Positions 2,784-63,515 of a stretch of DNA of 64,000 nt are shown here, one piece after another (position 1 is the first letter of the stretch; the number at the start of each line of letters is the position of its first letter). The stretch comes from Cyclobacteriaceae bacterium (GTDB taxonomy: Bacteria > Bacteroidota > Bacteroidia > Cytophagales > Cyclobacteriaceae). Location of the stretch: positions 7,208 to 71,207 of the forward strand of contig JAAUQL010000012.1 of assembly GCA_012033595.1 (NCBI GenBank), written 5' to 3'. The notes beneath the pieces are model-generated. The model was not told where the DNA came from. It saw nothing but the letters and a program-made list of their open reading frames with translations, and made no database searches. The position numbers and the translations under genes are program-made.

Positions 2784-3930
2784 TTACTGCATGGAAAAAA
2801 CGCTCAAGTCCCAGCTATCCATCCAACTCAGTGTTGGATTTCCTTCTTCATCCCATTGTAGGGGCAACCATACGTACCTGCCATCAATGGGGTTTTTGGG
2901 GTTCCACCTATCGGCCATAAAAACGAAGGCGTCCTTTTCGCCGCGAATTGGCAGCACAAAGGTGCTCTGCGATTGAAACGTAAGGTCGGCACCTTCTCCC
3001 CTGCACGGATTACCCAGCTCTGTCCAGGGACCAAATATGGCTGGAGCCCAGGCCGAGCGTGCCGCATTGGGTGCCCATCCGGTGCAGTCGGAGGCAATCA
3101 AATAATATTTACCATCCTTTTTGAACATGGCTGGCGCTTCCATATACCTGTTGGTGAATATGCGCACGTATTCACCATTTTCCGACAAATAATCATCAGA
3201 AAGTCGGGAAATGTGCAGGGTACTGTTTTCTTCTGAGGAATAAATATGATAAGCAATCCCATCATCATCAACAAACAGGTTTTGATCACGGGCCATCTGC
3301 CCAGCTTCAAAATCGCGCCCTAGCAGATTGAGCGAGTCTGGAGGTGCCGGCAGACAACCATATCCACCGCAATAGAACGGTTTGATGGTATCCGACACCG
3401 GCAGGTGATGAAAATCCTGTGCATTTTCGGCCAGAAACCAGCATTGGGTCGCACGTTTTCACAAATTCAAATGGCCCTGTTGGCGAATTACCCACCGCCA
3501 CACCCGACTGTGCCGCATCGTAACCCTGGCCTGCAAGCTCCAGGTGAAACCACATTACATAGTTGTTGTTTTGTTTGTTGTAAATCACCTTTGGCCTCTC
3601 TAAAATACAGCCTTTGGTAATGGGAGATTCCGGGTCATCCGACACTGTCAACACAATACCTTCATCCTGCCAATGGTACAAATTGCGCGAGGAATAGCAG
3701 TGAACACCCACCTGGGCAGTGTTGCCGATTTCACCTTCTATTTTGTGTTCCCCATACCAATAGTACACGCCATCATGCTCTAAAATGCCGCCACCATGAG
3801 CATTGATATGAACGCCCTGATTATCGGGCCAAATGCCGCCCGGTACAATCACCGGCTTATCAACTGATTGACACGAAAAGGCAAAAACCACCAAAAAGAT
3901 AAAAAACCCACAAAATCGAATCCTGGCCAT
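2784..3930 (-). CDS. glycoside hydrolase family 43-type enzyme (five-bladed propeller), split by apparent frameshifts
   Basis: ORF 3307..3930 supplies the N-terminal half (lipobox AFSCQ, HINAHGGGILEHDGVYYWYGEHK). ORF 2784..3398 supplies the C-terminal half (RYMEAPAMFKKDGKYYLIASDCTGWAPN). A third-frame piece, RPNAGFWP, bridges them. Two one-base corrections near 3424-3431 and 3459-3472 give a continuous protein. Confidence 0.7.
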
Positions 3931-4026: not shown

Positions 4027-5358
4027 TCATATTTCCGGGTAATTCATCATGCCTTTATGCTGCTCAGAATCAAGTGGTTCTTCCAGAAGTTTCTTTACAA
4101 AACGGGGAAGCACAAAAGCAGCATGATGCATGTCAAAATCATAATATTGCAAATGGTGGCGCAAAGAAAATTCTTGTATATCAGCTTTGCAAAGCCAGTT
4201 CAATGGATCAATACCTCCTTTGGACGAAAAGGAAAAACTCCACATTCCCGAAGGAAACGAAGGGAGGTACATCAGGTAGCAATGTACATGGGCTTCTCCG
4301 AATATCTGACGATAGCTACGAAATACCTCCATAAACACGTTTTGGTTGTATCGTGGAGATTCGCTTTGAGTCACCATCACACCTTGTGGGCGCAGAATCC
4401 TATAAATATCGCTGTAGAAAGCTTTTGTAAACAACCCTGCCCCGGGGCCAACCGGGTCATCTGAATCCACAATGACAATATCATACACACCATCTTCACA
4501 AGACCGAACAAACTCCACTCCGTCGAATACTTTGATATGCACCCGGCGGTCGTGTAGCGAAGAAGCGATATTGGGCAGATAGGCCATGGCTACTTCCATG
4601 ACCTGTGCGTCGATTTCCACCAGGTCGATTTCCGCTATCTCTTCATGCCTCAGCAGCTCCCTTACGGTGCCGCCGTCGCCTCCGCCAATTACCAGCACCC
4701 GCCGCGCATGGCCGTGGGCGAAAACAGGAACATGGGCTATCATTTCATGATACACATATTCATCTTCTTCTGCACACACTATCTTGCCATCCAACACCAA
4801 TACCCCACCAAAAGCTTCCGTATGATAAACCTCAATTTTCTGATGGGCCGATCGCTGGCAATACAGACGTTCGCCACTGTGCTTTAGCGAAAGCGCTATA
4901 TCTTCGTTGCGCTGAGTAAACCAGATATTCCTGGATGTTTTTATGCTTTTTGGCTTCTCGGTTTGCGGCTCACTTCGGACTTGTGGTGCGTATGATGGCG
5001 GAGCAAGCAGGGAGTTTTGTCCGCGATTCAACTCCACAGTCGATCCGGTCGCCGCGCCAAATGCTTCCTTAAGAAACTGATAGGCGATCCAGGGGTCTAT
5101 GGTATCGCCACAGGTATAGATATCGATGGAAGCATAGCCGAATTCGGGCCAGCAATGAATGGAAAAATGGCTTTCCTGAATGACTATGACCCCTGACACC
5201 CCAAAAGGAGAGAAATGATGAAATGTAGAGTTGATGACCGTAGCCCCTGCCCTGTCTGCGGCAGCGAGCATGGTTTTTTCCACAAAAGACACATCGTCTA
5301 TTTTATCGATTTCGCATTGGTACAACTCTGCAATGATATGGCGGCCAAGGGCGATCAT
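4027..5358 (-). CDS. bifunctional S-adenosylmethionine decarboxylase (pyruvoyl, SpeH/SpeD class 1) / spermidine synthase fusion
   Basis: ORF 4027..5439 trimmed to Met28 (MIALGRHIIAELY), which gives an ATGA overlap with the upstream stop at 5355-5358. The N-terminal domain has the self-processing motif VIVIQES-HFSIHCWPE and IDIYTCGD. The C-terminal domain has VLVIGGGDGGTVRELLRH and VDSDDPVGPGAGLF, the aminopropyltransferase signature. Confidence 0.85.
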   Translation of the reverse strand: MIALGRHIIAELYQCEIDKIDDVSFVEKTMLAAADRAGATVINSTFHHFSPFGVSGVIVIQESHFSIHCWPEFGYASIDIYTCGDTIDPWIAYQFLKEAFGAATGSTVELNRGQNSLLAPPSYAPQVRSEPQTEKPKSIKTSRNIWFTQRNEDIALSLKHSGERLYCQRSAHQKIEVYHTEAFGGVLVLDGKIVCAEEDEYVYHEMIAHVPVFAHGHARRVLVIGGGDGGTVRELLRHEEIAEIDLVEIDAQVMEVAMAYLPNIASSLHDRRVHIKVFDGVEFVRSCEDGVYDIVIVDSDDPVGPGAGLFTKAFYSDIYRILRPQGVMVTQSESPRYNQNVFMEVFRSYRQIFGEAHVHCYLMYLPSFPSGMWSFSFSSKGGIDPLNWLCKADIQEFSLRHHLQYYDFDMHHAAFVLPRFVKKLLEEPLDSEQHKGMMNYPEI

Positions 5359-5864
5359 CCGTTGTTGTTGGATAAGTCTTCCGGAGAGAGATAGTATTCG
5401 AAGCTGGCGTTTTCCTGCGATATCAAATTCCAGTCGCAAGCACTGCTTGCTATCTTCACTACACTACCGGGCTCCATGCCATCGAAATGGTATTCTGTGA
5501 GGTATTCTACAAAATAGGTCAGCACCGGATTATGACCCACTATAGCCACGGAGTTCCAGTCATCATTAAATGTTGATATGAGGTTTTCCAATATCCTTAC
5601 CGAGGCTTCATATAACTCTTCCTCTACTTTTATCTTGGCGATATTGTAGCTGATGCGATCGGCGATTAGTTCGGCAGACTGCCTGGCTCTGGTAGCATTG
5701 CTGCACAGCATGGCATCGATTTCGATATTTTTTCTATTGAAATAAGCCCCTATCCGCGCGGCTTGCTGCAGGCCTTCGGCGGTCAGTTCACGGTCTATGT
5801 CCCGCGAGCCTTTATCGGAATCTTTGGCTTTGGAATGCCTGATAATATATAGTGTTTTGCCCAT
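5355..5864 (-). CDS. sixA: SixA-like phosphohistidine phosphatase (histidine phosphatase superfamily)
   Basis: 169 aa. It has the N-terminal LYIIRHSKA catalytic RH motif and a later VAIVGHNP. Size and layout are typical of SixA. Confidence 0.7.
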   Translation of the reverse strand: MGKTLYIIRHSKAKDSDKGSRDIDRELTAEGLQQAARIGAYFNRKNIEIDAMLCSNATRARQSAELIADRISYNIAKIKVEEELYEASVRILENLISTFNDDWNSVAIVGHNPVLTYFVEYLTEYHFDGMEPGSVVKIASSACDWNLISQENASFEYYLSPEDLSNNNG

Positions 5865-5973: not shown

Positions 5974-8288
5974 ATGTCGAAGAACCTAGTTATTGTAGAG
6001 TCACCAGCAAAAGCCAAAACGATAGAAGGATATTTGGGCAAGGATTATAAAGTAGTTTCTAGTTATGGACACGTCAGGGACCTACCCAAAGGCGACATGG
6101 CAATTGACATAAAAATGGTTTTAAACCCACTTACGAGATATCCAAAGACAAAAAAGAAGTCATCAAAAATCTGAAATCGGATGCCAAAAGTGCTGAAATG
6201 ATCTATCTGGCGAGTGATGATGACCGCGAGGGAGAGGCCATTTCCTGGCACCTCAAAGAGGCGCTGAGCCTGGATGACAAGCAAACCCGCAGAATAGTTT
6301 TCAGGGAAATCACAAAAAATGCCATTCTGAATGCCATCAAAACACCAAGAGGGCTTGATCTGGATCTGGTTAATGCCCAGCAGGCACGCCGCATTCTCGA
6401 CAGGCTGGTAGGTTTTGAAATCAGCCCTATTTTATGGAAAAAGATCAAAAGAGGCTTATCAGCCGGCAGAGTGCAATCCGTAGCAGTCAGACTGGTAGTA
6501 GAGCGGGAACGTGAAATAGAGAAATTCGATGCTAAATCATTTTTCAAGGTCACGGCCCTATTCGATTTGGAAGAAGGCAAAAAGCTGAAAGCTGAACTTG
6601 GCAAAAAATTCGACACCGAGCAGGGAGCTGCAGATTTTCTAAATAAATGCCTCGGAGCGACGTACAGCATCAGCAATCTGGAGAAAAAACCAGGAAAAAA
6701 AACCGCTGCCGCTCCTTTTACCACTTCTACCTTGCAACAGGAAGCCAGCCGAAAACTTGGTTTTTCGGTTTCTCAGACCATGTCTGTGGCTCAAAAACTA
6801 TATGAATCGGGTAAGATTTCTTATATGAGGACTGACTCCGTCAACCTGTCTGACGAAGCCATAAATGGTGCCAAAGCAGCCATTGAACAGTTGTATGGTG
6901 CTGATTATGTCCATACTCGGCAATACAAAAACAAATCGAAATCTGCCCAGGAAGCGCACGAAGCCATAAGACCCACCAGTTTCATGAATCAGGAAGCCGG
7001 CTCCAATTCCAATGAACAGCGTTTGTACGACCTTATTTGGAAGCGCACCGTGGCCTCGCAAATGGCCGATGCACAAATAGAACGGACCATTGCCACCATT
7101 GCCATAAGCACCACACCTGAAACCCTCACTGCCCAGGGCGAAGTGGTCAAGTTTGAGGGCTTTTTAAAAGTTTATATAGAATCGACCGATGATGAAGAGG
7201 GCAATGGCGAAGATTCGGGCATGCTGCCCCCACTCAATATTGGCCAGCTTTTAGCACTCGACCATGTGCTGGCTCGCGAGGGTTTTACCCGCTCAGCAGC
7301 AAGATATACCGAAGCCAGCCTGGTGAAAAAACTGGAAGAAATGGGCATTGGACGACCCTCGACCTATGCGCCAACCATCACCACCATTCAGAAAAGGGAA
7401 TATGTGGTAAAAGAATCCAGAGAAGGCATAGAGCGCGCTTTCACGGAATTGATCTTGCAGCAAAATAAAATTTCTAAAAAGAAAAAGACCGAAATGACCG
7501 GTGCCGAAAAGAACAAACTTTTCCCCACCAATACCGCCATGATCGTAAACGACTTCCTGATCAACCAATTTCCCAATATCATAGATTACTCCTTCACGGC
7601 TAACGTAGAAAAGGAATTTGATGAAATAGCCAGCGGAAACCTGCAATGGGACAAAATGATTGGCAGTTTTTATGGAAGCTTTCACACCGACGTGACCAGC
7701 TCCGAGAACATCAGCAAAGTGGATATTGGCGCTTTGCGAGAGTTGGGGGTGGATCCGAAAAGCGGTAAAAAAGTTTATGCACGACTGGCTCGATTTGGCC
7801 CATGTGTACAACTGGGCGAGGTTGATGAAGAAGAAAAACCCCGATATTCGAGCTTGCGCAAAGGTCAGCTCATCGAAACCATCACGCTCGAAGACGCCCT
7901 GGAGCTTTTCAAACTACCACGCATAGTCGGGACTTTCGAAGGGGAAACCATCGATGCCAATGTTGGCCGTTTTGGCCCTTATGCCCGGCACAAGGGCAAG
8001 TTTTACGGTCTGTCGAAAGAAGACGACCCGCTGACACTCACCGAAGAGCGTGCCATAGAAATCATAGAAAAAAAGCGTATCGACGATGCCGGAAAGGTGA
8101 TCAAATGTTTTGATGAAAATGAAGAATTCCAAATCCTAAAAGGCAAATGGGGTCCCTATCTCAAGGCCGGCAAGAAGAATGTGAAACTGCCTAAAGACAA
8201 GGAGCCGGCAGACCTTACGTACGAAGAGTGCTTGACACTGGCAGAAAGTGCCCCCACCAAAAAGAAAGTGGTAAGAAAGAAAAAATAA
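5974..8288 (+). CDS. topA: DNA topoisomerase I (type IA), split by one homopolymer indel
   Basis: ORFs 5974..6174 and 6198..8288. It has the Toprim N-terminus [22 protein letters not shown], the DDDREGE motif and the SYMRTDS active-site Tyr region. Adding one A to the A5 run at 6111-6115 restores [44 protein letters not shown]. Confidence 0.95.
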
Positions 8289-15714: not shown

Positions 15715-17351
15715 TTAAAACAATTGGTATTCGGGAGATTGCATCATGGTATTGATCAGGTTTTCGAGATGAAAAACCACCTGAAAATCTTCCCCATCTA
15801 TAATGGTGGCTACCCAGTCTGCCTCATCTACATCTATGAGCAGGGTAGATTTGAAATAATCAAAACGCTCGGTGGTGATGGCCTCAGGCAGCAGATATTC
15901 GACAAAAAAAGTAACTATGGCCTGGGGCGAATTGAGGTCTATTCCTTCATCGCGGCAATAGTCCAATATATCGAGTTTATAGAGCAGCACATCATTTTCG
16001 TCTTTCTCTCCCAGCAGCAGGTTTGTGGAAATCTGGTATCTGCGCGCCAGGTTGTTCACGGTTATCCAATTTCGGTTATACGCCGGTTCCTGATAGTAGG
16101 CTTCGTAACCGGCCACATCATATGGTTCATAAAAGTCAAGACCCTGATTTTGAATTTTGTTGAAAAGTAAGTCTTGATAGACGGCATAAAAACGGCTCAA
16201 ATCGCTTTGCTGGTCGGGCAGGGAAACATTGAAAAATCGGAAAGCACCCAGCACCACCTCCAAGGGTGATTTAATAATCCCCCCCCTGTTATCATCTGTT
16301 TCCGTGCCATTGTCTGCATCAAAAAAGTGCTGGCTCGACAGCAATTGCTCCAGCACCGGTAGCAGTTCATATTCGGCTCCCATAAAGGTTTGGGCAAGTG
16401 GCCTTATAATATCGTTTTCTATTTCCGGAGTGATATCGTAATACACAAAATACCGGTACAATCTTCGGCAAATATACCTGGCTGTAGCCTCCTGCATAAA
16501 TATCATGTTCACCAACTGATCGAGCTCATCCAGTGCGGCTTCTTTGCTGGCTTTGTCACCTATCAATTCGATGGGCTGTATCGTGGTATTTTGAAAGTGC
16601 GGACTGAATTGTTTTATTGATGCATCGTGGTTGCTGGCTACGTTGCCCGTTCCTCTTATCACGCCCATGGCCACTCCGGTATCCGGATCGATATTGGAAT
16701 AATCAGGATCTGTATTGTAGCCCGATAGTACCTTGGACGATTCGATAATATCCTGCTCTGTATAGTTAGAATAGTCGTCGTCACTTATCTGATCTCCCTT
16801 TCCGATGGTAAAAAGTTCGAAATATTCACGCGCAAAGTTTTCGTTGGGTCGGCCTACGTCGTTGAGTCTGCCATCGAGATGTATCAGCATGGCATTGTCA
16901 TAGCATATTTTTTTGCCAGTTCCTTGAAATTGCCCCTGGCATAATGTCTGAATAATTTCAACTGATAGTAAATCGCCTCGCCACTTTCAATTCTGGAGCC
17001 AATGGTGGTGAAATGCGTATGGAAAAACCACGCCATGCGGTCTATGATCGAATTGCCCGAAGTCATCATCAGATCGAGCCACCATGCAAAGGTCATCTTC
17101 ATCAATTCATTCCCCTCGCTATTGGCCTCTGTTCGTTTAGGGTTTACCCACGGCGCGCCGGTTTTCAGATCAAGAGGCGGGCTGGCTGCTGGTTTTTCTT
17201 CGAATACGACGGCCAGCGCTTGCGTGATATTGTAACCCGAAAATGTATCAATATCCGTGCGGGATGGTCCAAAAGTGGTTCGCCTTAGAAAATGAGCCGC
17301 ATTTTTTTTGCCTAATGGAGCAGATAAATCGATGGGGTTGAGAGATGGCAT
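15715..17351 (-). CDS. DUF1800 domain protein, split by one homopolymer indel
   Basis: ORFs 16884..17351 and 15715..16890. Adding one base to the T7 run at 16908-16914 gives ELAKKICYDNAMLIHLDGRLNDVGRPNENFAREYFELFTIGKG, the conserved DUF1800 core. It forms the classic gene pair with the downstream DUF1501. Confidence 0.8.
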
Positions 17352-17887: not shown

Positions 17888-18807
17888 TTAAAAATCATCT
17901 ACTTCCTTATAGGCTTCCACCAGCCGTTTTTCTCCTTCAATTCCCTCTTTCGAAATTCCATGCTCCATGCCCATGATAAACTCGGGGTTTTTATCGTGGA
18001 TGAACTTGAATACATTTTTATAATTTATTTCCCCCGTAGTTGGCTCTTTTCGACCCGGATTGTCACCGATTTGAAAATAGGCTATTTCGTCCCAGGTCAA
18101 TTCAATATTCTTAATAATATTGCCCTCGTTTTTTGCATGTGATAGATATCGTAAAGTATTTTGCACGAAGGGCTGTCAACAGCTTTGCAGATCATATAGG
18201 TTTGTTCAGAAGTGCGCAGGTATAGGTCGGGCGAATCTGAAAGTGGCTCCAAGACCATAATCAATCCGTGGGGCTCTAGTATTTCGGCTCCTCTTCGCAG
18301 CGCCTCAATCACATTGGCATCTTGTATTCCCAAGGGCAAATTGCGCTCGTAGCCCCCGGGTACTACGGTCATCCATTTTGCATTTACCCTTTTGGCAACT
18401 TCTACTGCTCTTCTACACCCATCCAGAAAAATATCAATATGTTCCTTTTTGCCGGCAGCCAGGGTATTTTCCATATTACCTCCTTTATCTACGACAAATA
18501 CCCCCATCTGCATATTGAGCCTGGTCATGGCTTCTGCTATTTTGTTTTGCATGCTGATGTCCCGACCCATCATGCCATTGTCTTCCAAAGCTGTAAAGCC
18601 CTGATCGGCCATGTAATTGAGCTGATCCAGGAGATTGTCGCCTGCGGAGTGTTTGAACATGCCAAAATGGGGGGCATATTTCAACTTGAATCCATCCTGT
18701 GTCTGCTTGGGGGTCTTTTTCGCTTGAGCCATCGCGGAGCCTAAGCCCATAGAGGCAGCCCCACCCATAAGGGCACTGTTTCTTATAAAATTTCTTCTTT
18801 CCATCAT
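17888..18807 (-). CDS. Tat-exported xylose isomerase-like TIM-barrel protein (sugar phosphate isomerase/epimerase or hydroxypyruvate isomerase family), split by one homopolymer indel
   Basis: ORFs 18097..18807 and 17888..18166. The N-terminus is MMERRNFIRNSALMGGAASMG (a Tat motif). Adding one base to the T6 run at 18129-18134 gives ILYDIYHMQKNEGNIIKNIELTWDEIAYFQIGDNPGRKEP. Confidence 0.75.
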
Positions 18808-22405: not shown

Positions 22406-22632
22406 AAATCAAAAAATCTTTGGCCTCCCAAATTAAAATCATTCGCAGGTCAAAAACAAAAATGAAATTAGTATCGAAGAATGATCCCTTCACGTTTTAT
22501 TTTGCCGGCAGCAATGCTCCTTATCGATTTGTTTTTATACTTCTTAATAATCGCATTTCGATGCTTTACCCTGAATACCAAGATTAAAAATTTATTAATT
22601 TGCACTTTCATTAATAAGTAAAATCGCAGAAA

Positions 22633-24081
22633 TTGACTGAAAAAGAGAATCTTCATCATATTTTCGAACGTTGGTCGGGGGAAAAGGTCGAACAGGTGCA
22701 TACCATTCCTCAGTCTGGTTCGTACCGGGAGTACTACAGGTTAGTGGGTTCTTCAAAAACTGCCATCGGGGTATTCAATGAAGACTTAAAAGAAAACAAG
22801 GCCTTTTTAAGCTTTACCAAACATTTTTCAAAATTAGGTTTGGCGGTGCCACAACTACTCGCTGAAGATGATGGTGGCAAAACTTATTTATTGTCCGATC
22901 TGGGCGATGAGGCACTTTTTGATTACTTGCAGAGGAAACGCAACCAGGTAGGTGTATTTCCAGGTACAGGGATCAAAGCTTACAAAGAAGCGCTGAATGA
23001 ACTGCCGAAATTCCAGATACTGGCCGGCCAGCACCTCGACTACTCGGTCTGCTATCCGCGGCCTGCCTTCGACAGGCAATCGATGGTGTGGGATTTGAGC
23101 TATTTCAAATATTATTTTTTGAAACTGGCCAAAATACCATTTGATGAACAAATGCTCGAAGATGACTTTTCCAGATTCATAGATTATCTGCTTCAGGCCG
23201 ATTCCAACTACTTCCTATATCGCGACTTTCAGTCCAAAAATATAATGATGGTAGAGGGCAAGCCATTCTTCATCGATTATCAGGGGGGAAGAAAAGGCGC
23301 ATTGCAGTACGACGTCGCCTCCCTGCTGTACGACTCCAAAGCAAACATACCTGGCGATATCAAGGACATTCTGCTAGATCACTATCTCGATGTACTTAGG
23401 CACTACCTCGATTTCGACAAAAAAGAGTGGGTAGCTTTTTATCGCGCTTTTGTACTTATCCGCCTGATGCAGGCTATGGGTGCCTATGGTTTTCGGGGAT
23501 TTTACGAGCGAAAAACCCAGTTTCTCAAAAGCATCCCCTACGCGCTGAAGCAACTCGACAACATCATCAATTCCAATCTTTTTCCTCCGGGTTTTCCCTA
23601 TATGGAGCATGTGCTGAGCAACCTAACCTCGTCTAAACAGTTGCTCAGGTACCGGCAGGAATTCAATACCCTGGTGCCCTTGAACATCGAACTAATGAGC
23701 TTTTCGTATCACAAAGGATTGCCTGTAGAAAAATACGGTCATGGCGGTGGATTCATTTTTGATTGCCGGGGCATTCACAACCCGGGTCGATACGAGCGCT
23801 TTAGCAGCAAAAATGGGAAGGATGGTGAAGTGATGGATTTTTTGAAAACCGGGGGCGAAGCAGATGAATTTCTCAACAATGCCATTCATTTGGTGGAGCA
23901 AACCATTGATAAATACCTCAACAGGGAGTTTAAACATCTGCAAATAGCCTTTGGCTGTACTGGCGGACAACACCGGTCGGTATATTGTGCTGAGAAAATG
24001 GCAGAAATTCTGAATGATAAATATGAAGACCGCATCAACATCAGGCTTAGCCATCGCGAATTAGACCCATTAGCAGGATGA
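22633..24081 (+). CDS. fusion protein: AmgK-like (APH-fold) sugar kinase domain + RapZ C-terminal domain
   Basis: 482 aa. The TTG start given by the track is uncertain. Residues ~1-330 carry APH-fold kinase motifs (YRDFQSKNIMM, FIDYQGGRKGALQYDVASLLYDS). Residues ~345-482 match the RapZ/YvcJ C-terminal domain (LMSFSYHKGLP, FDCRGIHNPG, IAFGCTGGQHRSVYCAEKMAE). Confidence 0.75.
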   Translation: MTEKENLHHIFERWSGEKVEQVHTIPQSGSYREYYRLVGSSKTAIGVFNEDLKENKAFLSFTKHFSKLGLAVPQLLAEDDGGKTYLLSDLGDEALFDYLQRKRNQVGVFPGTGIKAYKEALNELPKFQILAGQHLDYSVCYPRPAFDRQSMVWDLSYFKYYFLKLAKIPFDEQMLEDDFSRFIDYLLQADSNYFLYRDFQSKNIMMVEGKPFFIDYQGGRKGALQYDVASLLYDSKANIPGDIKDILLDHYLDVLRHYLDFDKKEWVAFYRAFVLIRLMQAMGAYGFRGFYERKTQFLKSIPYALKQLDNIINSNLFPPGFPYMEHVLSNLTSSKQLLRYRQEFNTLVPLNIELMSFSYHKGLPVEKYGHGGGFIFDCRGIHNPGRYERFSSKNGKDGEVMDFLKTGGEADEFLNNAIHLVEQTIDKYLNREFKHLQIAFGCTGGQHRSVYCAEKMAEILNDKYEDRINIRLSHRELDPLAG

Positions 24082-24820
24082 AAGCAATGATTTTTGCCGC
24101 CGGACTCGGCACCAGGTTGAGACCTGTAACCAACGACAAGCCCAAAGCCATGGCCACAATACATGGCACCACACTGCTCGAGATCACCATCAGGCGTTTG
24201 AAAAACCATGGATTCAAAGATATAGTCGTGAATGTACATCACTACGCAGACATGATTACTGAATTTTTGGAATCGAATAAGCATTTCGGCATCAATATTC
24301 AGATTTCCGACGAACGGGCATTGCTGCTGGACACCGGAGGCGGGCTAAAGCAGGCTGCACGTTTTTTTGACGACGGCAAGCCCTTTCTTGTGCACAATGT
24401 CGATACCCTCACGGATGTAAGCCTCAAAGATTTTTATGATTATCATATAAAAAACAGGCCTTAGCCACATTGTTGATCAGGCACCGGCCAGGAAGCAGGT
24501 TTTTCCTTTTTGATGAGGAAAAGAGATTGTGTGGTTGGGAAAATGTGGTCAGCAAGGAAAAAATCATATCGCGCCCCACTCAAAGACCTCCGGAGCAAAT
24601 AGCATTTTCTTGCCTGCATGTTATCGATCCGGACATTTTTAATCACATCCACGAAAGTGGTTGCTTTTCCATTATCGATGTTTATCTGAGATTGGCCAAA
24701 AACCATCCGATATACGGATACCTCGACGACCAGTCTTACTGGCTGGACGTCGGTACTCCTGAAAAATTAAAAAAAGGAGAAATGGAATTTGATATTGAAA
24801 AGTTGGTGGCGAGCAGGTAG
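24078..24820 (+). CDS. MurU-like sugar-1-phosphate nucleotidyltransferase, split by one homopolymer indel
   Basis: ORFs 24078..24464 and 24470..24820. The N-terminus is MKAMIFAAGLGTRLRPVTNDKPKAM. Adding one A to the A6 run at 24449-24454 gives YHIKKQALATLLIRHRPGSRFFLFDE. Its ATG overlaps the stop of the upstream kinase (ATGA). Confidence 0.8.
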
Positions 24821-40675: not shown

Positions 40676-41755
40676 TTATTCTATGCTTCTCATTTTACTT
40701 AAAATCAATGCCCCAAGTTCGGTCGCAGGAAGTGCGGTGCTGTTTCGCGAGTTCATCACCACAAAAACGCCTTGCTGTCTATTTTCATCAAAGCCAATAA
40801 ACGAATTAAAACCGTCTGTCCCCCCATTGTGCCAAGTAGCTGTATATCCTTCTTCCACTTTAGTGATAAACCATGAGAGTCCAAACCCATTTTGTTCATC
40901 TTCTTCAAAAGTGAACGTTTGAGCAAGTTCAAATACCTGCCCTAAGTCTGGATGGGTCTTTTGTATATTAGCAATTAGGTATTTCATCATGTCAGATGGG
41001 GTGGAAATAATAGAACCGGCAGCTTGGTTGGCTTGGGTCATTTTAAAAGGCTCCTGCTTATTTATACCGATGTATCCTGTTGCAAAATTTCCGTCTTGCT
41101 CCACGTTTGTATTTACATAAGATCGAGTCATCCCAAGTGGATTGAATATTTGTTGCTGAACTAAGGTCTCGTAACTGGTATTTTCTACCCGTTCCAATAA
41201 ATACCCTAGTAAACCCACTCCTACATTTGAATACTCATGCATTACACCTGGCTTTACGGATGGATTCCAGTTGTTTAAAAAACTAAAGAGTTCGGGCAAT
41301 CCATAGTCAGAAAACTTATCTGTATCGTTGTCAGGTTGACGCGGCATGCCCGATGTATGATTTGCCAAATGAACAAATCTTATCGAATCAGTAGCATAAA
41401 TATTCATATTTACACCTGATGGAAGGTAATCGTAAATAGGCTGGTTGAGTGAAGTACTTCCGTTTAGATGACTTTTTGCCAATAAAGTAGAAGTGAATGT
41501 TTTGGTAATCGAACCTATTTCAATCAATGTATTTTCATCAAATGGTTGGCCTGAATCGAGGTTTCTAACCCCAAAAAAATAATACGATATTTCATTATTT
41601 TGAAATACACCTATTCCAATACCTGGAGTGTTGGCAGTAAATAAATAAGGTTGAACAGTTTGGTTAATATATTCTGCTAAGTTATTTGGTTGTAACAACT
41701 CTTTATCAGAACAACCGAACATTAATATTATCAACGAATAAAAAACTTTTTTCAT
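40676..41755 (-). CDS. serine hydrolase, class C beta-lactamase / DD-peptidase family
   Basis: 359 aa with the lipobox LMFGCSDK. It has the SxxK motif in EIGSITKTF, a Tyr-x-Asn region (YSNVG) and a late HNGGTDG motif. Confidence 0.75.
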   Translation of the reverse strand: MKKVFYSLIILMFGCSDKELLQPNNLAEYINQTVQPYLFTANTPGIGIGVFQNNEISYYFFGVRNLDSGQPFDENTLIEIGSITKTFTSTLLAKSHLNGSTSLNQPIYDYLPSGVNMNIYATDSIRFVHLANHTSGMPRQPDNDTDKFSDYGLPELFSFLNNWNPSVKPGVMHEYSNVGVGLLGYLLERVENTSYETLVQQQIFNPLGMTRSYVNTNVEQDGNFATGYIGINKQEPFKMTQANQAAGSIISTPSDMMKYLIANIQKTHPDLGQVFELAQTFTFEEDEQNGFGLSWFITKVEEGYTATWHNGGTDGFNSFIGFDENRQQGVFVVMNSRNSTALPATELGALILSKMRSIE

Positions 41756-51406: not shown

Positions 51407-53082
51407 ATGAAAATGGATATAAACAAGTACAGTAGTAAAATTACCCAGGACGAGAGCCTTCCCGCCGCACAGGCCATGCTTTATGCCATAGGCATGAAAG
51501 ATGCGGACATGAAAAAAGCCCAGATCGGAATAGTGAGCACAGGATACCAGGGCAATCCTTGCAATATGCACCTCAACGGCCTGGCCGATCGCATTAAGCA
51601 GGGCGTCGATCAAAACCCGGGACTTTTAGGATTGATATTTCATACGATTGGTGTAAGCGATGGCATCACCAATGGCACCGAGGGCATGAAATACTCCCTT
51701 CCTTCCAGAGAAATAATTGCTGACTCTATAGAGACCGTAGTGTGTGCTCAATTCTACGATGCGGTAGTTCCGGTGGTAGGTTGCGACAAAAACATGCCCG
51801 GCGCGATGATCGCCATGGGCAGGATAAACCGGCCTGGCATATTGGTATATGGAGGTACGGTAAAAAAAGGATCATGGAAAGGAAAAGACCTCAATATCGT
51901 TTCGGCTTTTGAAGCTTATGGCGAAAAACTGGCAGGTAAAATCAGCGAAGAAGATTATAAAGGAATCATAAAAAACTCCATACCCGGAGCGGGCGCCTGT
52001 GGGGGTATGTACACCGCCAATACCATGGCTGCGGCCATCGAATGCCTGGGCATGAGCTTGCCTTATTCCAGCTCTAACCCGGCCATAAGCGAAGAAAAAG
52101 GACACGAATGTTTTGATATTGGCAGGGCGATCAAACACCTGCTCGAAACAGACCTAAAACCCAGAGACATCATGACCAAGGCATCGTTTGAAAATGCCAT
52201 AGCCCTGATCATGGCCTTGGGCGGCTCTACCAATGCGGTGCTGCATTTATTGGCAATGGCCCGATCGGTGGAAGTAGATCTGAGCATAAACGATTTTCAG
52301 CGCATAAGTGACAAGACACCATTTGTTGCTGACCTGAAACCGAGTGGCGAATATCTGATAGAAGATCTGCACCACGTCGGTGGTGTACCCGGAGTAATGA
52401 AAATGTTGCTCAGAGAAGGCTACTTTGATGGCAACTGCATGACGGTGACCGGCAAGACACTGGGAGAAAACCTGGAGATGATCCAGGATCTGGAAAAGGC
52501 CAGAAAATCATCAGGCCGTTTAGCGACCCCATCAAGCCGGTCGGACATATACAAATACTCTATGGAAACCTGGCAGAAGAAGGTTCTGTGGCCAAAATCA
52601 CCGGCAAAGAAGGTGAATTTTTTACAGGGCCGGCCAAAGTGTTTAATGATGAGTTTGAAGCCATAAAAGGTATAGGTAGCACTGTGCAAAAAGGCGATGT
52701 GATCGTGATCAGGTACAGTGGACCAAAAGGTGCTCCCGGAATGCCTGAAATGCTTAAACCAACAGGAGTAGTGATGGGCGCCGGTCTCGGAAAAGACGTC
52801 GCGCTGATCACCGATGGCAGGTTTTCGGGAGGTTCACATGGATTTGTTGTCGGGCACATCACCCCGGAGGCATCGGAAGGTGGCTTGATTGGACTGCTAA
52901 AAGATGGCGATATCATTACCATTGATGCCAAAAACAACCGCCTTGAAGCCGATGTTTCAGAAGAAGAAATCGCTTTACGCAAGAGTCAGTGGCAAAAACC
53001 AGCTTATAAAGCAAAAACAGGAATTTTAAAAAAGTTTATTGATACCGTTTCCACAGCCTCGACGGGCTGTGTTACAACTTAA
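51407..53082 (+). CDS. ilvD: dihydroxy-acid dehydratase, split by one homopolymer indel
   Basis: ORFs 51407..52666 and 52588..53082. IlvD/Edd motifs are present ([33 protein letters not shown]). One extra base in GGAAAAGG (52504-52509) gives [43 protein letters not shown]. Confidence 0.95.
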
Positions 53083-61667: not shown

Positions 61668-63387
61668 TCAGACACTTGCCGGCTTTTTACCCATGATTCC
61701 CTGCAGCATAAAACCCAAAATCACTACCAGCAAACACCCAAAGGCATTGTACCATAAAAAACCCATGGTGAATAAGCCGGCTTTGCCCAATACATTGAGA
61801 TAATGGACAAGAATAACTATAGCCTGACTCACCAATGCCGCAATAAACACGGCGTTGCCCCCAATACGTTTGAAGAAAAACGCTACCACAAAAATGCCCA
61901 GCACAATAGGATAAAACAACGAGCCGATCAGGTTGACGGCCTGGATCAGGTTTTCGAACAAAGAAAGATAAGATGCGAATAATATGGCGATGATGCCCCA
62001 GAGTAGCGTCATAAACTTGGAGGCACGTAAATAATGCTTGTCGCTGGCTGTTTTGATGATGTTCCTTTTATAAAAGTCGATGGTGGACGTGGAGCCCAAG
62101 GCATTTAATTCTGAAGAGGTAGAAGACATGGCCGCCGAAAAAATGACCGCAAAGAGCAAGCCTACCACGCCTACCGGCAGGTTGTTCATCACGAAAATTC
62201 ATAAAGATATAGTCCTTGTCGTTGGTCTCAGCCTCGGGCAAGGTTTCGCCAATAAGCTCGCTGGCTTTTTGACGGATTTTATTCGATTGATTTTGGAGTT
62301 CGTTAACCTTTGCCGCAGCAGCATCTACTTGCTCATCCGTGCCGTTATCTACCACTTGCTGCAACGTATGTACTGCCTGCATTTTTGTTTCGAAAATAGC
62401 GTCATAATCGCTCTGAAGCGCCTGGAATTCTTCTGCCTTTACCGATGTGGTCATTTCTTCACGCAGGGGTTCATTAAAGAATATCGGCGGCTGGTTATAT
62501 TGATAAAAGACGAATACCATCACCCCGACAAAAAGGATAATAAATTGCATGGGCACTTTAAGCAATCCATTCATCATTAGCCCCAGCCGGCTCTCGGTGA
62601 GCGACTTACCAGAAAGATAGCGCTGCACCTGCGACTGATCCGTGCCAAAATATGACATGAACAAAAAGACGGCGCCGGTCATGCCAGACCAGAAATTATA
62701 ACGATCGTTGAGGTCGAATTCAAAATTGACCACATTTAGTTTGCCCATTTTGCCGGCGATATGCAATGCATCTATAAAGCCAACATTTCCCGGAAGGGAA
62801 TAAATGACTAAAATACCAGCAAGCACCATACCACCCATCATCACGGCCATTTGCTGTTTTTGTGTTTGAGTCACTGCTTTGGTACCACCCGAAACGGTAT
62901 ATAATATCACTAAAATACCGATAACGGTGGTAGTATAACCCAGCCTCCAGCCAAGTAACGTAGAGAGTATAATGGCAGGTGCATAGATGGTAATACCTGC
63001 GGCCAGGCCTCTTTGAATAAGAAATATACCTGCGGCCAGCAAACGGGTTTTCAGATCAAACCTATTTTCGAGAAATTCATACGCGGTGTAAACCTTGAGC
63101 CGGTAATACAGGGGCAGAAAAAAAACTGAAATGATGATCATGGCCAGGGGCAGGCCAAAATAAAACTGGATAAAACGCATACCATCGGTATAGGCCTGGC
63201 CGGGAGTAGAAAGAAAGGTGATGGCGCTGGCCTGAGTGGCCATAATCGACAATCCGATGGTCCACCATTTGGTGCTGTCGCCACGCAAATAGCTGTCCAT
63301 GCTGTGGGTGTCCCTGGTTCGCCATATCCCATAGGCTACGATGGAAACTAGGGTGGCAAATAATATGATCCAATCGATATTGCTCAT
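61668..63387 (-). CDS. sodium:solute symporter (SSS) family transporter, split by one indel
   Basis: ORFs 62068..63408 (trimmed to MSNIDWIILFATLV) and 61668..62192. A correction in the A4 run at 62194-62197 gives DYIFMNFVMNNLPVGVVGLLFAVIFSAAMSSTSSELNALGS, the conserved SSS TM region. Confidence 0.85.
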
Positions 63388-63515
63388 GAAAAATACCTGG
63401 TAAACCAATAGAATAAAGCGATAAGTACGACCAGATGCACCATCAGCAGAAAGTAGAGTTTTTTCCAGGTGCCCAGTATTGGAGGGCGGTCTTCCAAATC
63501 GCTTTTTTCACTCAT
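63384..63515 (-). CDS. 43-aa membrane peptide encoded between the phosphatase and the SSS transporter
   Basis: Own reading: MSEKSDLEDRPPILGTWKKLYFLLMVHLVVLIALFYWFTRYFS. ATGA overlaps occur at both ends (63512-63515 and 63384-63387). Confidence 0.5.
   Translation of the reverse strand: MSEKSDLEDRPPILGTWKKLYFLLMVHLVVLIALFYWFTRYFS

What the first reader, a model, noticed from the sequence alone, without database searches (positions are those of the whole stretch)
22633..24820. AmgK-like anomeric sugar kinase fused to a RapZ C-terminal domain and translationally coupled to a MurU-like nucleotidyltransferase
The 482-aa protein joins an APH-fold kinase domain (YRDFQSKNIMM, IDYQGG...YDVASLLYD) to a clear RapZ/YvcJ C-terminal domain (LMSFSYHKGLP, FDCRGIHNPG, IAFGCTGGQHRSVYCAEKMAE). 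The first domain is the fold of the MurNAc/GlcNAc anomeric kinase AmgK. In canonical RapZ the C-terminal domain follows a P-loop domain and is the amino-sugar (GlcN6P) and RNA-binding module. Here the P-loop half is replaced by a different kinase fold. The next gene overlaps by ATGA and is a MurU-type sugar-1-phosphate nucleotidyltransferase. The pair therefore looks like the AmgK-MurU cell-wall sugar salvage route with an added amino-sugar sensing or binding module. This suggests either allosteric control of peptidoglycan-sugar recycling or an unrecognised catalytic role for the RapZ C-domain. I cannot judge from the sequence alone how widespread this architecture is.
Basis: partly seen in the sequence, partly recalled or inferred. 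Interest (0 to 1): 0.65.

Follow-up and report, generated by a model that had tools for sequence, protein, structure and literature searches.

The report
AmgK-like kinase carrying a RapZ domain
This gene encodes a cell-wall-sugar salvage kinase with the sugar-phosphate-binding half of the regulator RapZ welded to its end; the architecture is real, common in Bacteroidota and their relatives, unstudied in the papers I could search, and labelled "RNase adapter RapZ" in public databases.

Summary
ORF 22633..24081 (482 aa) joins an APH-fold, AmgK-like kinase (residues ~1-335) to a RapZ C-terminal domain (349-478). Support for the RapZ domain: Pfam PF22740 E=3e-31, and a domain model that matches the E. 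coli RapZ C-domain crystal structure (TM 0.91, 1.7 A).

A MurU-like nucleotidyltransferase gene follows with an ATGA overlap. The window carries at least four more such deletions, including in topA and ilvD, so this is most likely a sequence-quality artefact.

The fusion is widespread:
- at least 589 species genomes, and about 150 listed clusters at 50% identity;
- Bacteroidales (including cultured Bacteroides and Phocaeicola), Cytophagia, Ignavibacteria, Calditrichia and Marinimicrobia.

The MurU-like gene lies directly downstream in 45 of 82 loci. Eight cluster representatives are kinase-RapZ_C-nucleotidyltransferase triple fusions.

The RapZ anion pocket is essentially invariant. RapZ's P-loop half and basic RNA-binding tail are absent.

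Best reading: an AmgK/MurU-type UDP-MurNAc salvage pair whose kinase carries a phospho-sugar-binding module, which either regulates the kinase or hands its product on. The ligand and role are inferred, not shown. I call it a new variant of a known kind, of moderate interest.

The parts
22633..24081 (+). Whole ORF, 482 aa, TTG start: AmgK-like kinase fused to a RapZ C-terminal domain
   Evidence: The AF2 model has mean pLDDT 87.7.
22633..23637 (+). APH-fold (AmgK-like) kinase domain, residues ~1-335. Catalytic-loop residues D198 and N203 (YRDFQSKN) and D215 (IDYQ).
   Evidence: PF01636 E=7e-07. AmgK models NF045759 and NF045698 give 47 and 44 bits over nearly the full model length. The best solved structure is 3csv, by sequence E=6e-12 and by fold TM 0.77. 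D198, N203 and D215 are 100% conserved in 133 diverse members.
23638..23676 (+). Variable inter-domain linker, residues ~336-348
   Evidence: No position is conserved at 95% or more, and the mean top-residue frequency is 0.08. pLDDT drops to 59 for residues 341-350.
23677..24066 (+). RapZ C-terminal domain, residues ~349-478. Anion-pocket residues R379, N383-P384-G385-R386, C442-T443-G444-G445, H447-R448-S449.
   Evidence: PF22740 E=3e-31. PDB RapZ 5o5s E=1.5e-10. The domain-only model has pLDDT 90.4. Its only significant PDB matches are E. coli RapZ chains (best 5o5s, TM 0.91, rmsd 1.7 A). The pocket residues are at least 95% conserved.
24078..24081 (+). ATGA: the start of the MurU-like gene overlaps the stop of the kinase gene
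   Evidence: The same 4-nt overlap is seen in relative L001.
24078..24464 (+). 5' part of the MurU-like sugar-1-phosphate nucleotidyltransferase gene (128 aa, then a premature stop)
   Evidence: PF00483 E=1e-19. MurU NF045761 scores 108 bits.
24449..24459 (+). Site of the 1-bp deletion. It lies at the A6 run 24449-24454 or the following CAGG. A7 would read HIKKQALATLL in one frame.
   Evidence: DNA alignment with L001 and L002. Logan contigs of the same run agree with the window. Deletions of the same type occur elsewhere in the window.
24456..24820 (+). 3' part of the MurU-like gene, in a different reading frame
   Evidence: tblastn of the L001 orthologue switches frame at about 24450. Read through, the 247-aa protein best matches P. 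putida MurU 4y7t (E=2e-20) and the NCBIfam MurU model (132.6 bits, cut-off 250).

Best explanation
The locus is a two-gene operon for salvage of a cell-wall amino sugar, most likely MurNAc (possibly also GlcNAc), into its UDP-sugar.

Proposed steps:
1. The N-terminal APH-fold domain of the 482-aa protein phosphorylates the anomeric hydroxyl, as AmgK does.
2. The downstream MurU-like nucleotidyltransferase converts the sugar-1-phosphate to the UDP-sugar.
3. The kinase carries, on a flexible and unconserved linker, a RapZ C-terminal domain that keeps RapZ's phosphate/anion pocket but lacks RapZ's P-loop half and basic RNA-binding tail.

I propose that this domain binds a phosphorylated amino sugar of the pathway. 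Candidates are the product MurNAc-alpha-1-P, or GlcN6P, MurNAc-6P or a UDP-sugar. In doing so it either tunes kinase output to the precursor pool or holds the product for the nucleotidyltransferase. It probably also dimerises the enzyme, as RapZ C-domains do.

Shown here: the domain identities, conservation of both active-site or pocket residue sets, the gene linkage and the triple fusions.
Inferred: the sugar specificity, the ligand of the C-domain, and whether its role is regulation or hand-over.

The split MurU-like gene in this window is most likely a sequencing artefact.
For: Domains:
- Pfam and NCBIfam assignments.
- PDB matches by sequence and by fold.

Pathway assignment:
- AmgK is the only named kinase family hit, and MurU is the top nucleotidyltransferase hit, in the window, in gut members and in triple fusions.
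- The best PDB hit of the second gene is P. putida MurU.

Functional linkage:
- A MurU-like gene lies directly downstream on the same strand in 45 of 82 loci. No other neighbour recurs in more than 13 loci.
- The pair is also adjacent in gut Bacteroidales, once behind mreB-mreC-PBP2.
- Eight 50%-cluster representatives are kinase-RapZ_C-NTP_transferase fusions. Several were seen at identical length in independent sources.

Selection on both halves, in 133 members at 37-51% identity to the query:
- D198, N203 and D215 are 100% conserved.
- The C-domain has 24 of 130 positions conserved at 95% or more, against 29 of 335 in the kinase.

Pocket:
- E. coli RapZ pocket residues C247, T248, G249, H252 and R253 map to the near-invariant C442, T443, G444, H447 and R448.
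- This pocket binds sulphate or malonate, contacts RNA phosphates, and is the proposed GlcN6P site (PMC9841335; mapping from the alignment).

Literature:
- The AmgK/MurU pathway operates in Tannerella forsythia (Bacteroidales), and its genes work in E. coli (PMC7670621, PMC10941766, PMC13046382).
Against: - Scores are far below the curated equivalog cut-offs (AmgK 47 against 550; MurU 133 against 250), so substrate identity is not established.
- In 37 of 82 loci no MurU-like gene lies within 4 kb.
- I could not obtain the T. forsythia AmgK sequence. The link from this fused family to the only Bacteroidota enzyme tested experimentally is therefore unverified.
- RapZ pocket residue H190 is replaced by an invariant Gly-Arg (G385-R386), so ligand specificity may differ from RapZ.
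- No model coordinates or PAE were available. pTM is 0.69 for the full length against 0.87 for the C-domain alone, and the linker has low pLDDT, so the geometry between the kinase site and the pocket is unknown.
- Three of RapZ's RNA-path basic positions stay basic in at least 80% of members, so nucleic-acid binding is not excluded.
Confidence: 0.5

Rival explanations
1. Same architecture, different sugar. The kinase and nucleotidyltransferase activate another hexosamine or sugar, for example GlcNAc/GalNAc-1-P or a glycan or capsule precursor, rather than MurNAc. The RapZ_C domain binds that sugar phosphate.
For: Both genes score far below the AmgK and MurU equivalog cut-offs. Other nucleotidyltransferase families (mannose-1-P guanylyltransferase, archaeal GlmU, HddC) also match at E<1e-20. 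APH-fold kinases act on many substrates.
Against: AmgK and MurU are consistently the top-scoring named families across the family. The best solved structure for the second gene is MurU itself. One gut locus sits behind mreB-mreC-PBP2. The literature places AmgK/MurU in Bacteroidota.
Confidence: 0.2
2. The RapZ_C domain is itself catalytic. It transforms a phospho-amino-sugar, for example dephosphorylating MurNAc-6-P as MupP does in Pseudomonas, and so feeds the kinase. That would make the protein a bifunctional enzyme.
For: The pocket is the most conserved part of the protein, with invariant Asp, two Cys, two His and two Arg (D377, C378, R379, C442, H447, R448, H474). [quoted passage not shown] In the triple fusions the domain sits between two enzymes.
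Against: No enzymatic activity has been shown for any RapZ C-domain. Most of the conserved residues are the general RapZ-family signature. Fold search finds no phosphatase or other enzyme fold, only RapZ, and my C-X5-R phosphatase-loop idea found no structural support there.
Confidence: 0.15
3. The domain is only an oligomerisation or scaffold module with no ligand. It dimerises the kinase or docks the nucleotidyltransferase.
For: RapZ C-domains form symmetric dimers in the tetramer (PMC9841335). The linker is flexible. Triple fusions show that proximity to the nucleotidyltransferase is selected.
Against: A pure scaffold would not need near-invariance of the buried anion-pocket residues across phyla.
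Confidence: 0.1
4. It is an RNA-binding adaptor like RapZ, as the RefSeq name 'RNase adapter RapZ' implies. It would couple amino-sugar status to RNA decay.
For: The RapZ pocket contacts the RNA backbone in E. coli. K170, R184 and R196 equivalents stay basic in at least 80% of members. A Paludibacteraceae variant carries an N-terminal 3'-5' exonuclease domain, with an RNase E/G gene 1.7 kb upstream.
Against: There is no P-loop domain. The C-terminal tail is about 9 residues with net charge 0, instead of RapZ's basic cluster. K194, K203, R211, R238 and K251 equivalents are not basic. The exonuclease and RNase E/G association is found in one lineage only, in none of the other 85 loci. The conserved partner is a sugar nucleotidyltransferase.
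Confidence: 0.05

Closest known systems
AmgK (MurNAc/GlcNAc anomeric kinase) with MurU (MurNAc-alpha-1-P uridylyltransferase): the anabolic peptidoglycan recycling shortcut of Pseudomonas putida and P. aeruginosa, also shown in Legionella, Caulobacter and Tannerella forsythia
   Same: An APH-fold kinase followed by a small NTP_transferase gene on the same strand, often overlapping. AmgK and MurU are the best-matching curated families, and MurU 4y7t is the best solved structure for the second gene.
   Different: Proteobacterial AmgK is a single-domain protein of about 38-39 kDa (PMC11957156). This one has an extra 130-residue RapZ_C domain. Sequence similarity is remote, at 47 and 133 bits, well below the equivalog cut-offs. 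In some relatives all three modules form one polypeptide.
RapZ (E. coli; YvcJ in Bacillus): RNase E adaptor and GlcN6P sensor
   Same: The C-terminal domain is homologous at profile level (E=3e-31) and superposes on the crystal structure (TM 0.91, 1.7 A, 28-29% identity). Pocket residues C247, T248, G249, H252 and R253 are conserved.
   Different: There is no Walker A/B P-loop N-domain; an unrelated kinase fold takes its place. The basic C-terminal RNA-binding tail is missing. H190 is replaced by Gly-Arg, and most RNA-path lysines and arginines are lost. The genomic partner is a nucleotidyltransferase, not the rapZ/ptsN-type context.
PDB 3csv, 'putative aminoglycoside phosphotransferase' from Silicibacter sp. 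TM1040 (structural genomics, function not assigned)
   Same: It is the closest solved structure to the kinase half, by sequence (E=6e-12) and by fold (TM 0.77).
   Different: It is a 333-aa single-domain protein with no RapZ_C. Its own substrate is unknown, so it does not settle specificity.

Membership tests
AmgK (NCBIfam NF045759 / NF045698) | APH / eukaryotic-like kinase fold with catalytic Asp and Asn in the catalytic loop and a metal-binding Asp | tested here: met
   PF01636 hit. Fold matches to 3csv, APH and choline kinases. D198, N203 and D215 are invariant in 133 members.
AmgK (NCBIfam NF045759 / NF045698) | Whole-protein score at or above the curated equivalog cut-off | tested here: not met
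   47.2 bits against 550, and 43.6 against 500. Gut and triple-fusion members score 46-72 bits.
AmgK (NCBIfam NF045759 / NF045698) | Genetic linkage to a murU-type nucleotidyltransferase | tested here: met
   ATGA overlap in the window. The gene lies downstream in 45 of 82 loci. Triple fusions exist.
AmgK (NCBIfam NF045759 / NF045698) | ATP-dependent phosphorylation of MurNAc/GlcNAc at the anomeric position | not testable with these tools
   This needs an enzyme assay. The T. forsythia enzyme was assayed by others, but its sequence could not be retrieved here.
RapZ (NCBIfam NF003828; Pfam PF03668 + PF22740) | C-terminal RapZ domain (PF22740) with the GCTGGxHRS pocket | tested here: met
   E=3.1e-31. 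TM 0.91 to 5o5s. Pocket residues are at least 95% conserved.
RapZ (NCBIfam NF003828; Pfam PF03668 + PF22740) | N-terminal P-loop (Walker A/B) NTPase domain | tested here: not met
   Only model positions 156-278 of 278 align, at 94.9 bits against a cut-off of 244. The N-terminal 335 residues are APH fold.
RapZ (NCBIfam NF003828; Pfam PF03668 + PF22740) | Basic C-terminal tail and basic surface path that bind GlmY/GlmZ | tested here: not met
   The tail after H474 is about 9 residues with median net charge 0. Five of eight RNA-path basic positions are not basic (residue list from PMC9841335).
MurU (NCBIfam NF045761 / NF045697) | Small single-domain NTP_transferase, best match to MurU among solved structures | tested here: met
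   PF00483. 4y7t at E=2.4e-20 is the top PDB hit for the read-through protein.
MurU (NCBIfam NF045761 / NF045697) | Score at or above the curated equivalog cut-off | tested here: not met
   132.6 bits against 250, and 117.9 against 370.
MurU (NCBIfam NF045761 / NF045697) | Intact reading frame | tested here: not met
   There is a 1-bp deletion at about 24449-24459. It is probably an artefact, given at least four other such deletions in the window.

The most novel reading that the evidence does not exclude
RapZ_C is an ancient phospho-amino-sugar module that works with kinases of unrelated folds: a P-loop kinase in RapZ/YvcJ, and an APH-fold kinase here. On this reading it binds, and possibly chemically processes, the kinase's amino-sugar substrate or product. 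RNA binding by enterobacterial RapZ would then be a late add-on. The long-unknown substrate of the RapZ/YvcJ NTPase half would be an amino sugar of the UDP-GlcNAc/UDP-MurNAc pathway. The Bacteroidota protein would be a two- or three-step salvage enzyme.
Probability: 0.15. Interest if true: 0.8.

Novelty: new variant of a known kind. Interest (0 to 1): 0.5.

Why it matters
What the RapZ C-domain binds and does is still open. For E. coli RapZ, GlcN6P binding is known but the site is described as uncharacterised, and the role of the NTPase half is unclear (PMC9841335).

This family offers a natural experiment. The same domain, with the same invariant pocket, is attached to a different kinase fold. 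It sits beside, or is fused to, a UDP-sugar-forming enzyme, in a lineage without the RapZ RNA-binding tail. That makes the ligand question directly testable on a soluble enzyme with a measurable output.

There are practical consequences too:
- The AmgK/MurU route bypasses MurA, the fosfomycin target.
- T. forsythia AmgK/MurU is already used to install MurNAc probes in E. coli. If that enzyme carries this domain, its regulation matters for those tools.
- RefSeq currently names many of these proteins 'RNase adapter RapZ'. The evidence here does not support that name, and it will propagate.

Tried and rejected
- Retrieving the T. forsythia AmgK sequence or any description of it. The papers by Hottmann 2021, Wodzanowski 2022, Ruscitto 2018 and Renner-Schneck 2015 are not held. 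No supplement is held. Three name look-ups gave Bacteroides, Phocaeicola, Paludibacteraceae, Muribaculaceae and Chitinophagaceae, but no Tannerella.
- Literature on the fusion. No paper holds both 'AmgK' and 'RapZ'. The 'RapZ' plus 'Bacteroid*' hits are unrelated.
- The idea that GCTGGQHRS is a C-X5-R(S) phosphatase loop. Fold search of the domain finds only RapZ and no phosphatase fold, so I dropped it as a structural argument.
- Programmed frameshifting or slippage at the A6 run. Relatives have neither a frameshift nor a conserved slippery site there, so I rejected it.
- Reading the MurU-like split as a real pseudogene. This is weakened by the same kind of 1-bp deletion in topA, ilvD, DUF1800 and an AP-endonuclease-family gene.
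- Promoter and terminator consensus scan. Counts are at chance level, and Bacteroidota promoters are not covered.
- Looking for other conserved neighbours. Only lineage-specific ones turned up: DUF218 in 13 loci, a cluster of 9 that I did not scan, and PAP2 in 6.
- Exonuclease or RNase E/G linkage. It is seen in one lineage only.
- Inter-domain geometry. Model coordinates and PAE are not available to scripts.
- Naming the organism of the large gut cluster through sequencing runs.
Full report
**1. What is in the sequence**

- Pfam finds the RapZ C-terminal domain PF22740 at E=3.1e-31 (residues 351-477) and the APH phosphotransferase family PF01636 at E=7.2e-07 (residues 53-252).
- NCBIfam returns only three families. 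RapZ aligns over its C-terminal model positions 156-278 only, at 94.9 bits against a cut-off of 244. The two AmgK equivalogs align over almost their whole length, at 47.2 and 43.6 bits against cut-offs of 550 and 500.
- Among solved structures, the kinase half is closest to 3csv (E=6e-12) and the C-terminal half to E. coli RapZ (E~1e-10).
- The TTG start is supported. Conserved residues F11 and W14 lie before the next candidate start, and relatives start at the same point.

**2. Structure**

- An AlphaFold2 model of the whole protein has mean pLDDT 87.7 and pTM 0.69, with a dip to pLDDT 59 at residues 341-350.
- Its PDB matches are APH-fold kinases, led by 3csv (TM 0.77), then the corramycin, choline, homoserine and aminoglycoside kinases.
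- A model of residues 343-482 alone has pLDDT 90.4 and pTM 0.87.
- That domain model matches only E. coli RapZ chains at significant E-values. The best match is the isolated C-domain 5o5s (TM 0.91, rmsd 1.7 A, 28-29% identity). Nothing else has E below 0.8.
- The two-domain description is therefore robust.

**3. The second gene and the frameshift**

The next gene starts at the ATGA at 24078-24081. It is not one ORF.
- Frame 0 stops at 24464 after 128 aa, and the rest (116 aa, to 24820) lies in another frame.
- Two close relatives have intact 247- and 243-aa genes in the same synteny. L001 is 79% identical and L002 is 77% identical.
- DNA alignment shows a single missing base in the window at or next to the A6 run 24449-24454. 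With A7 the protein would read ...HIKKQALATLL....
- Read through, the protein best matches P. putida MurU among solved structures (4y7t, E=2.4e-20) and the NCBIfam MurU models (132.6 bits, cut-off 250).
- The window comes from a stromatolite metagenome run. Logan's independent contigs of that run carry exactly the same sequence, at word depth 17.5.

The same kind of 1-bp deletion also interrupts several other genes in the window:
- topA, at the A5 run 6111-6115;
- DUF1800, at 16884-16890;
- an AP-endonuclease-family gene, at about 18110-18133, next to an A6 run;
- ilvD, at about 52495-52507;
- probably leuA, at about 57026.

Essential genes broken at this rate point to read or consensus errors, so I treat the murU-like split as a probable artefact. 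Relatives show no conserved slippery site, so programmed frameshifting is rejected.

**4. How widespread is the fusion**

All 120 listed proteins are about 475-505 aa and carry PF22740, most with PF01636 as well.
- An exhaustive search of representatives at 50% identity gave 766 proteins at E<=1e-30. Nearly all of the best 150 are 470-495 aa and match the query end to end, down to 37% identity.
Taxa include Prolixibacteraceae, Draconibacterium, Labilibaculum, Mariniphaga, Carboxylicivirga, Saccharicrinis, Alkalitalea, Cyclobacteriaceae, Saprospiraceae, Ignavibacteria, Calditrichia and Neomarinimicrobiota. Several are cultured strains.
- A second search seeded from a Paludibacteraceae member, followed by name look-ups, showed the family in Bacteroides gallinaceum, Phocaeicola sp., Bacteroidaceae, Muribaculaceae and Chitinophagaceae. 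Clusters at 90% identity reach 1063 member sequences.
- Sources name these proteins 'phosphotransferase', 'RapZ C-terminal domain-containing protein' or 'RNase adapter RapZ'.
- The refutation condition 'two separate genes after polishing' is therefore excluded.

**5. Linkage of the three modules**

- In 45 of 82 loci a MurU-like gene lies directly downstream on the same strand. In the other 37 loci none lies within 4 kb.
- No other neighbour recurs in more than 13 loci. The lineage-specific neighbours include DUF218 and PAP2 proteins.
- Gut Bacteroidales keep the pair. In one locus it follows mreB, mreC, a PBP2-type transpeptidase and a NUDIX gene.
- Eight cluster representatives of 714-816 aa are kinase-RapZ_C-NTP_transferase fusions. 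Several have members of identical length from independent sources. Their nucleotidyltransferase part again matches MurU best.
- This is Rosetta-stone evidence that the three modules act together.

**6. Conservation**

I aligned 133 full-length representatives, each 37-51% identical to the query.
- The kinase residues D198, N203 and D215 are invariant.
- The C-domain has 24 of 130 positions conserved at 95% or more, against 29 of 335 in the kinase.
- The linker, residues 336-348, has none.

Residue mapping onto E. coli RapZ uses the alignment and the residue lists in PMC9841335.
- The sulphate/malonate pocket residues C247, T248, G249, H252 and R253 correspond to C442, T443, G444, H447 and R448, all 98% conserved or more.
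- H190 is replaced by G385, which is followed by R386 (R or K in 92%).
- Of the basic residues that line the RNA path, the K170, R184 and R196 equivalents remain basic in at least 80% of members. The K194, K203, R211, R238 and K251 equivalents do not.
- The tail after H474 is about 9 residues with net charge 0, unlike RapZ's basic C-terminus.

**7. Interpretation**

- The best-supported reading is an AmgK/MurU-type salvage pair in which the kinase carries a phospho-sugar-binding RapZ_C module on a flexible tether.
- The literature shows that the AmgK/MurU route exists in Bacteroidota: T. forsythia depends on it, and its genes function in E. coli (PMC7670621, PMC10941766, PMC13041923, PMC13046382).
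- I could not obtain that enzyme's sequence, so its membership in this fused family is likely but unverified.
- What the C-domain binds, and whether it regulates, channels, catalyses or merely dimerises, is inference.
- The RapZ paper notes that GlcN6P binds the C-domain at a site not yet characterised. It also reports that density in the pocket after soaking looks like a chemically transformed product. This keeps a catalytic role open.
- The RNA-adaptor reading implied by the RefSeq name is the weakest. The P-loop half and the basic tail are missing, and the conserved partner is a sugar nucleotidyltransferase.
- One Paludibacteraceae lineage adds an N-terminal 3'-5' exonuclease domain and has an RNase E/G gene nearby. 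This is not seen in any of the other 85 loci.

**8. Novelty and score**

- The architecture is visible in domain databases and is common, so the window's copy is an ordinary member.
- No paper in the searchable library connects AmgK with RapZ, although several key papers were not available.
- I rate it a new variant of a known kind, with interest 0.5. It offers a clean system in which to ask what the RapZ C-domain binds. It also flags a propagating misannotation.

Noticed in passing
window 6111-6115; 16884-16890; ~18110-18133; 24449-24459; ~52495-52507; ~57026: Recurrent single-base deletions, several at or next to A5/A6 runs, split topA, DUF1800, an AP-endonuclease-family gene, the murU-like gene, ilvD and probably leuA. 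GH43 (2784-3930), a His_Phos_1 gene (5355-5864) and an SSF transporter (62068-63408) also look truncated. The contig appears to carry systematic indel errors, so any pseudogene call in this window needs raw-read support.
   Followed up: partly
Relatives: P0439 (WP_204471731.1, Bacteroides gallinaceum), P0453 (WP_340321238.1, Phocaeicola sp.), P0345, P0483, P0523: RefSeq names members of this kinase-RapZ_C family 'RNase adapter RapZ'. They lack RapZ's P-loop domain and basic RNA-binding tail and score 95-105 bits against the model's 244-bit cut-off, so the name is probably a misannotation that is spreading.
   Followed up: partly
P0172, P0191, P0193, P0201, P0208, P0250, P0251, P0140 (proteins): These are natural triple fusions, APH kinase - RapZ_C - NTP_transferase, of 714-816 aa. 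In P0172 the join is only a few residues long (...HRELGIEREMGKKALVLAAGLGTRLRP...), as if a stop codon between overlapping genes had been lost.
   Followed up: partly
L086:5001-7157 (P0256, Paludibacteraceae; also P0306): This variant has an N-terminal DNA_pol_A_exo1 (RNase D-like 3'-5' exonuclease) domain ahead of the kinase-RapZ_C protein. An RNase E/G family gene lies 1.7 kb upstream on the same strand, and no MurU-like gene follows. It is not seen in the other 85 loci. It is curious because RapZ is an RNase E adaptor.
   Followed up: partly
L083:1013-8194: In a very abundant gut Bacteroidales lineage (a 90% cluster of 1063 sequences), the pair sits at the end of a same-strand run: mreB, mreC, a 169-aa ORF, a PBP2-type transpeptidase and a NUDIX gene. 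That is a cell-wall elongation context.
   Followed up: no
window 22406-22632, compared with L001:4733-5683 and L002:4731-5837: Both close relatives have a guanylate/adenylate-cyclase-domain gene (PF00211) between the cytochrome c gene and the kinase gene. The window has only a 227-bp intergenic gap there.
   Followed up: no
window ~28000-51000: A long stretch of lower G+C (0.36-0.40, against 0.42-0.48 elsewhere). It encodes type IX secretion cargo (CHU_C and Por_Secre_tail), FecR-like proteins, outer-membrane beta-barrels, a beta-lactamase-family protein (40676-41755) and an HU/DUF4469 protein. It may be an acquired or accessory region.
   Followed up: no
L009, L014, L020, L027, L033, L040, L044, L046, L048, L050-L052, L080 (upstream of the kinase gene): In Prolixibacteraceae and Draconibacterium the MurU-like gene is not adjacent. 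Instead a DUF218 gene lies divergently upstream in 13 loci, and a second conserved gene (cluster c3, which I did not scan) lies downstream in 9. A PAP2 phosphatase gene is nearby in 6 other loci.
   Followed up: partly
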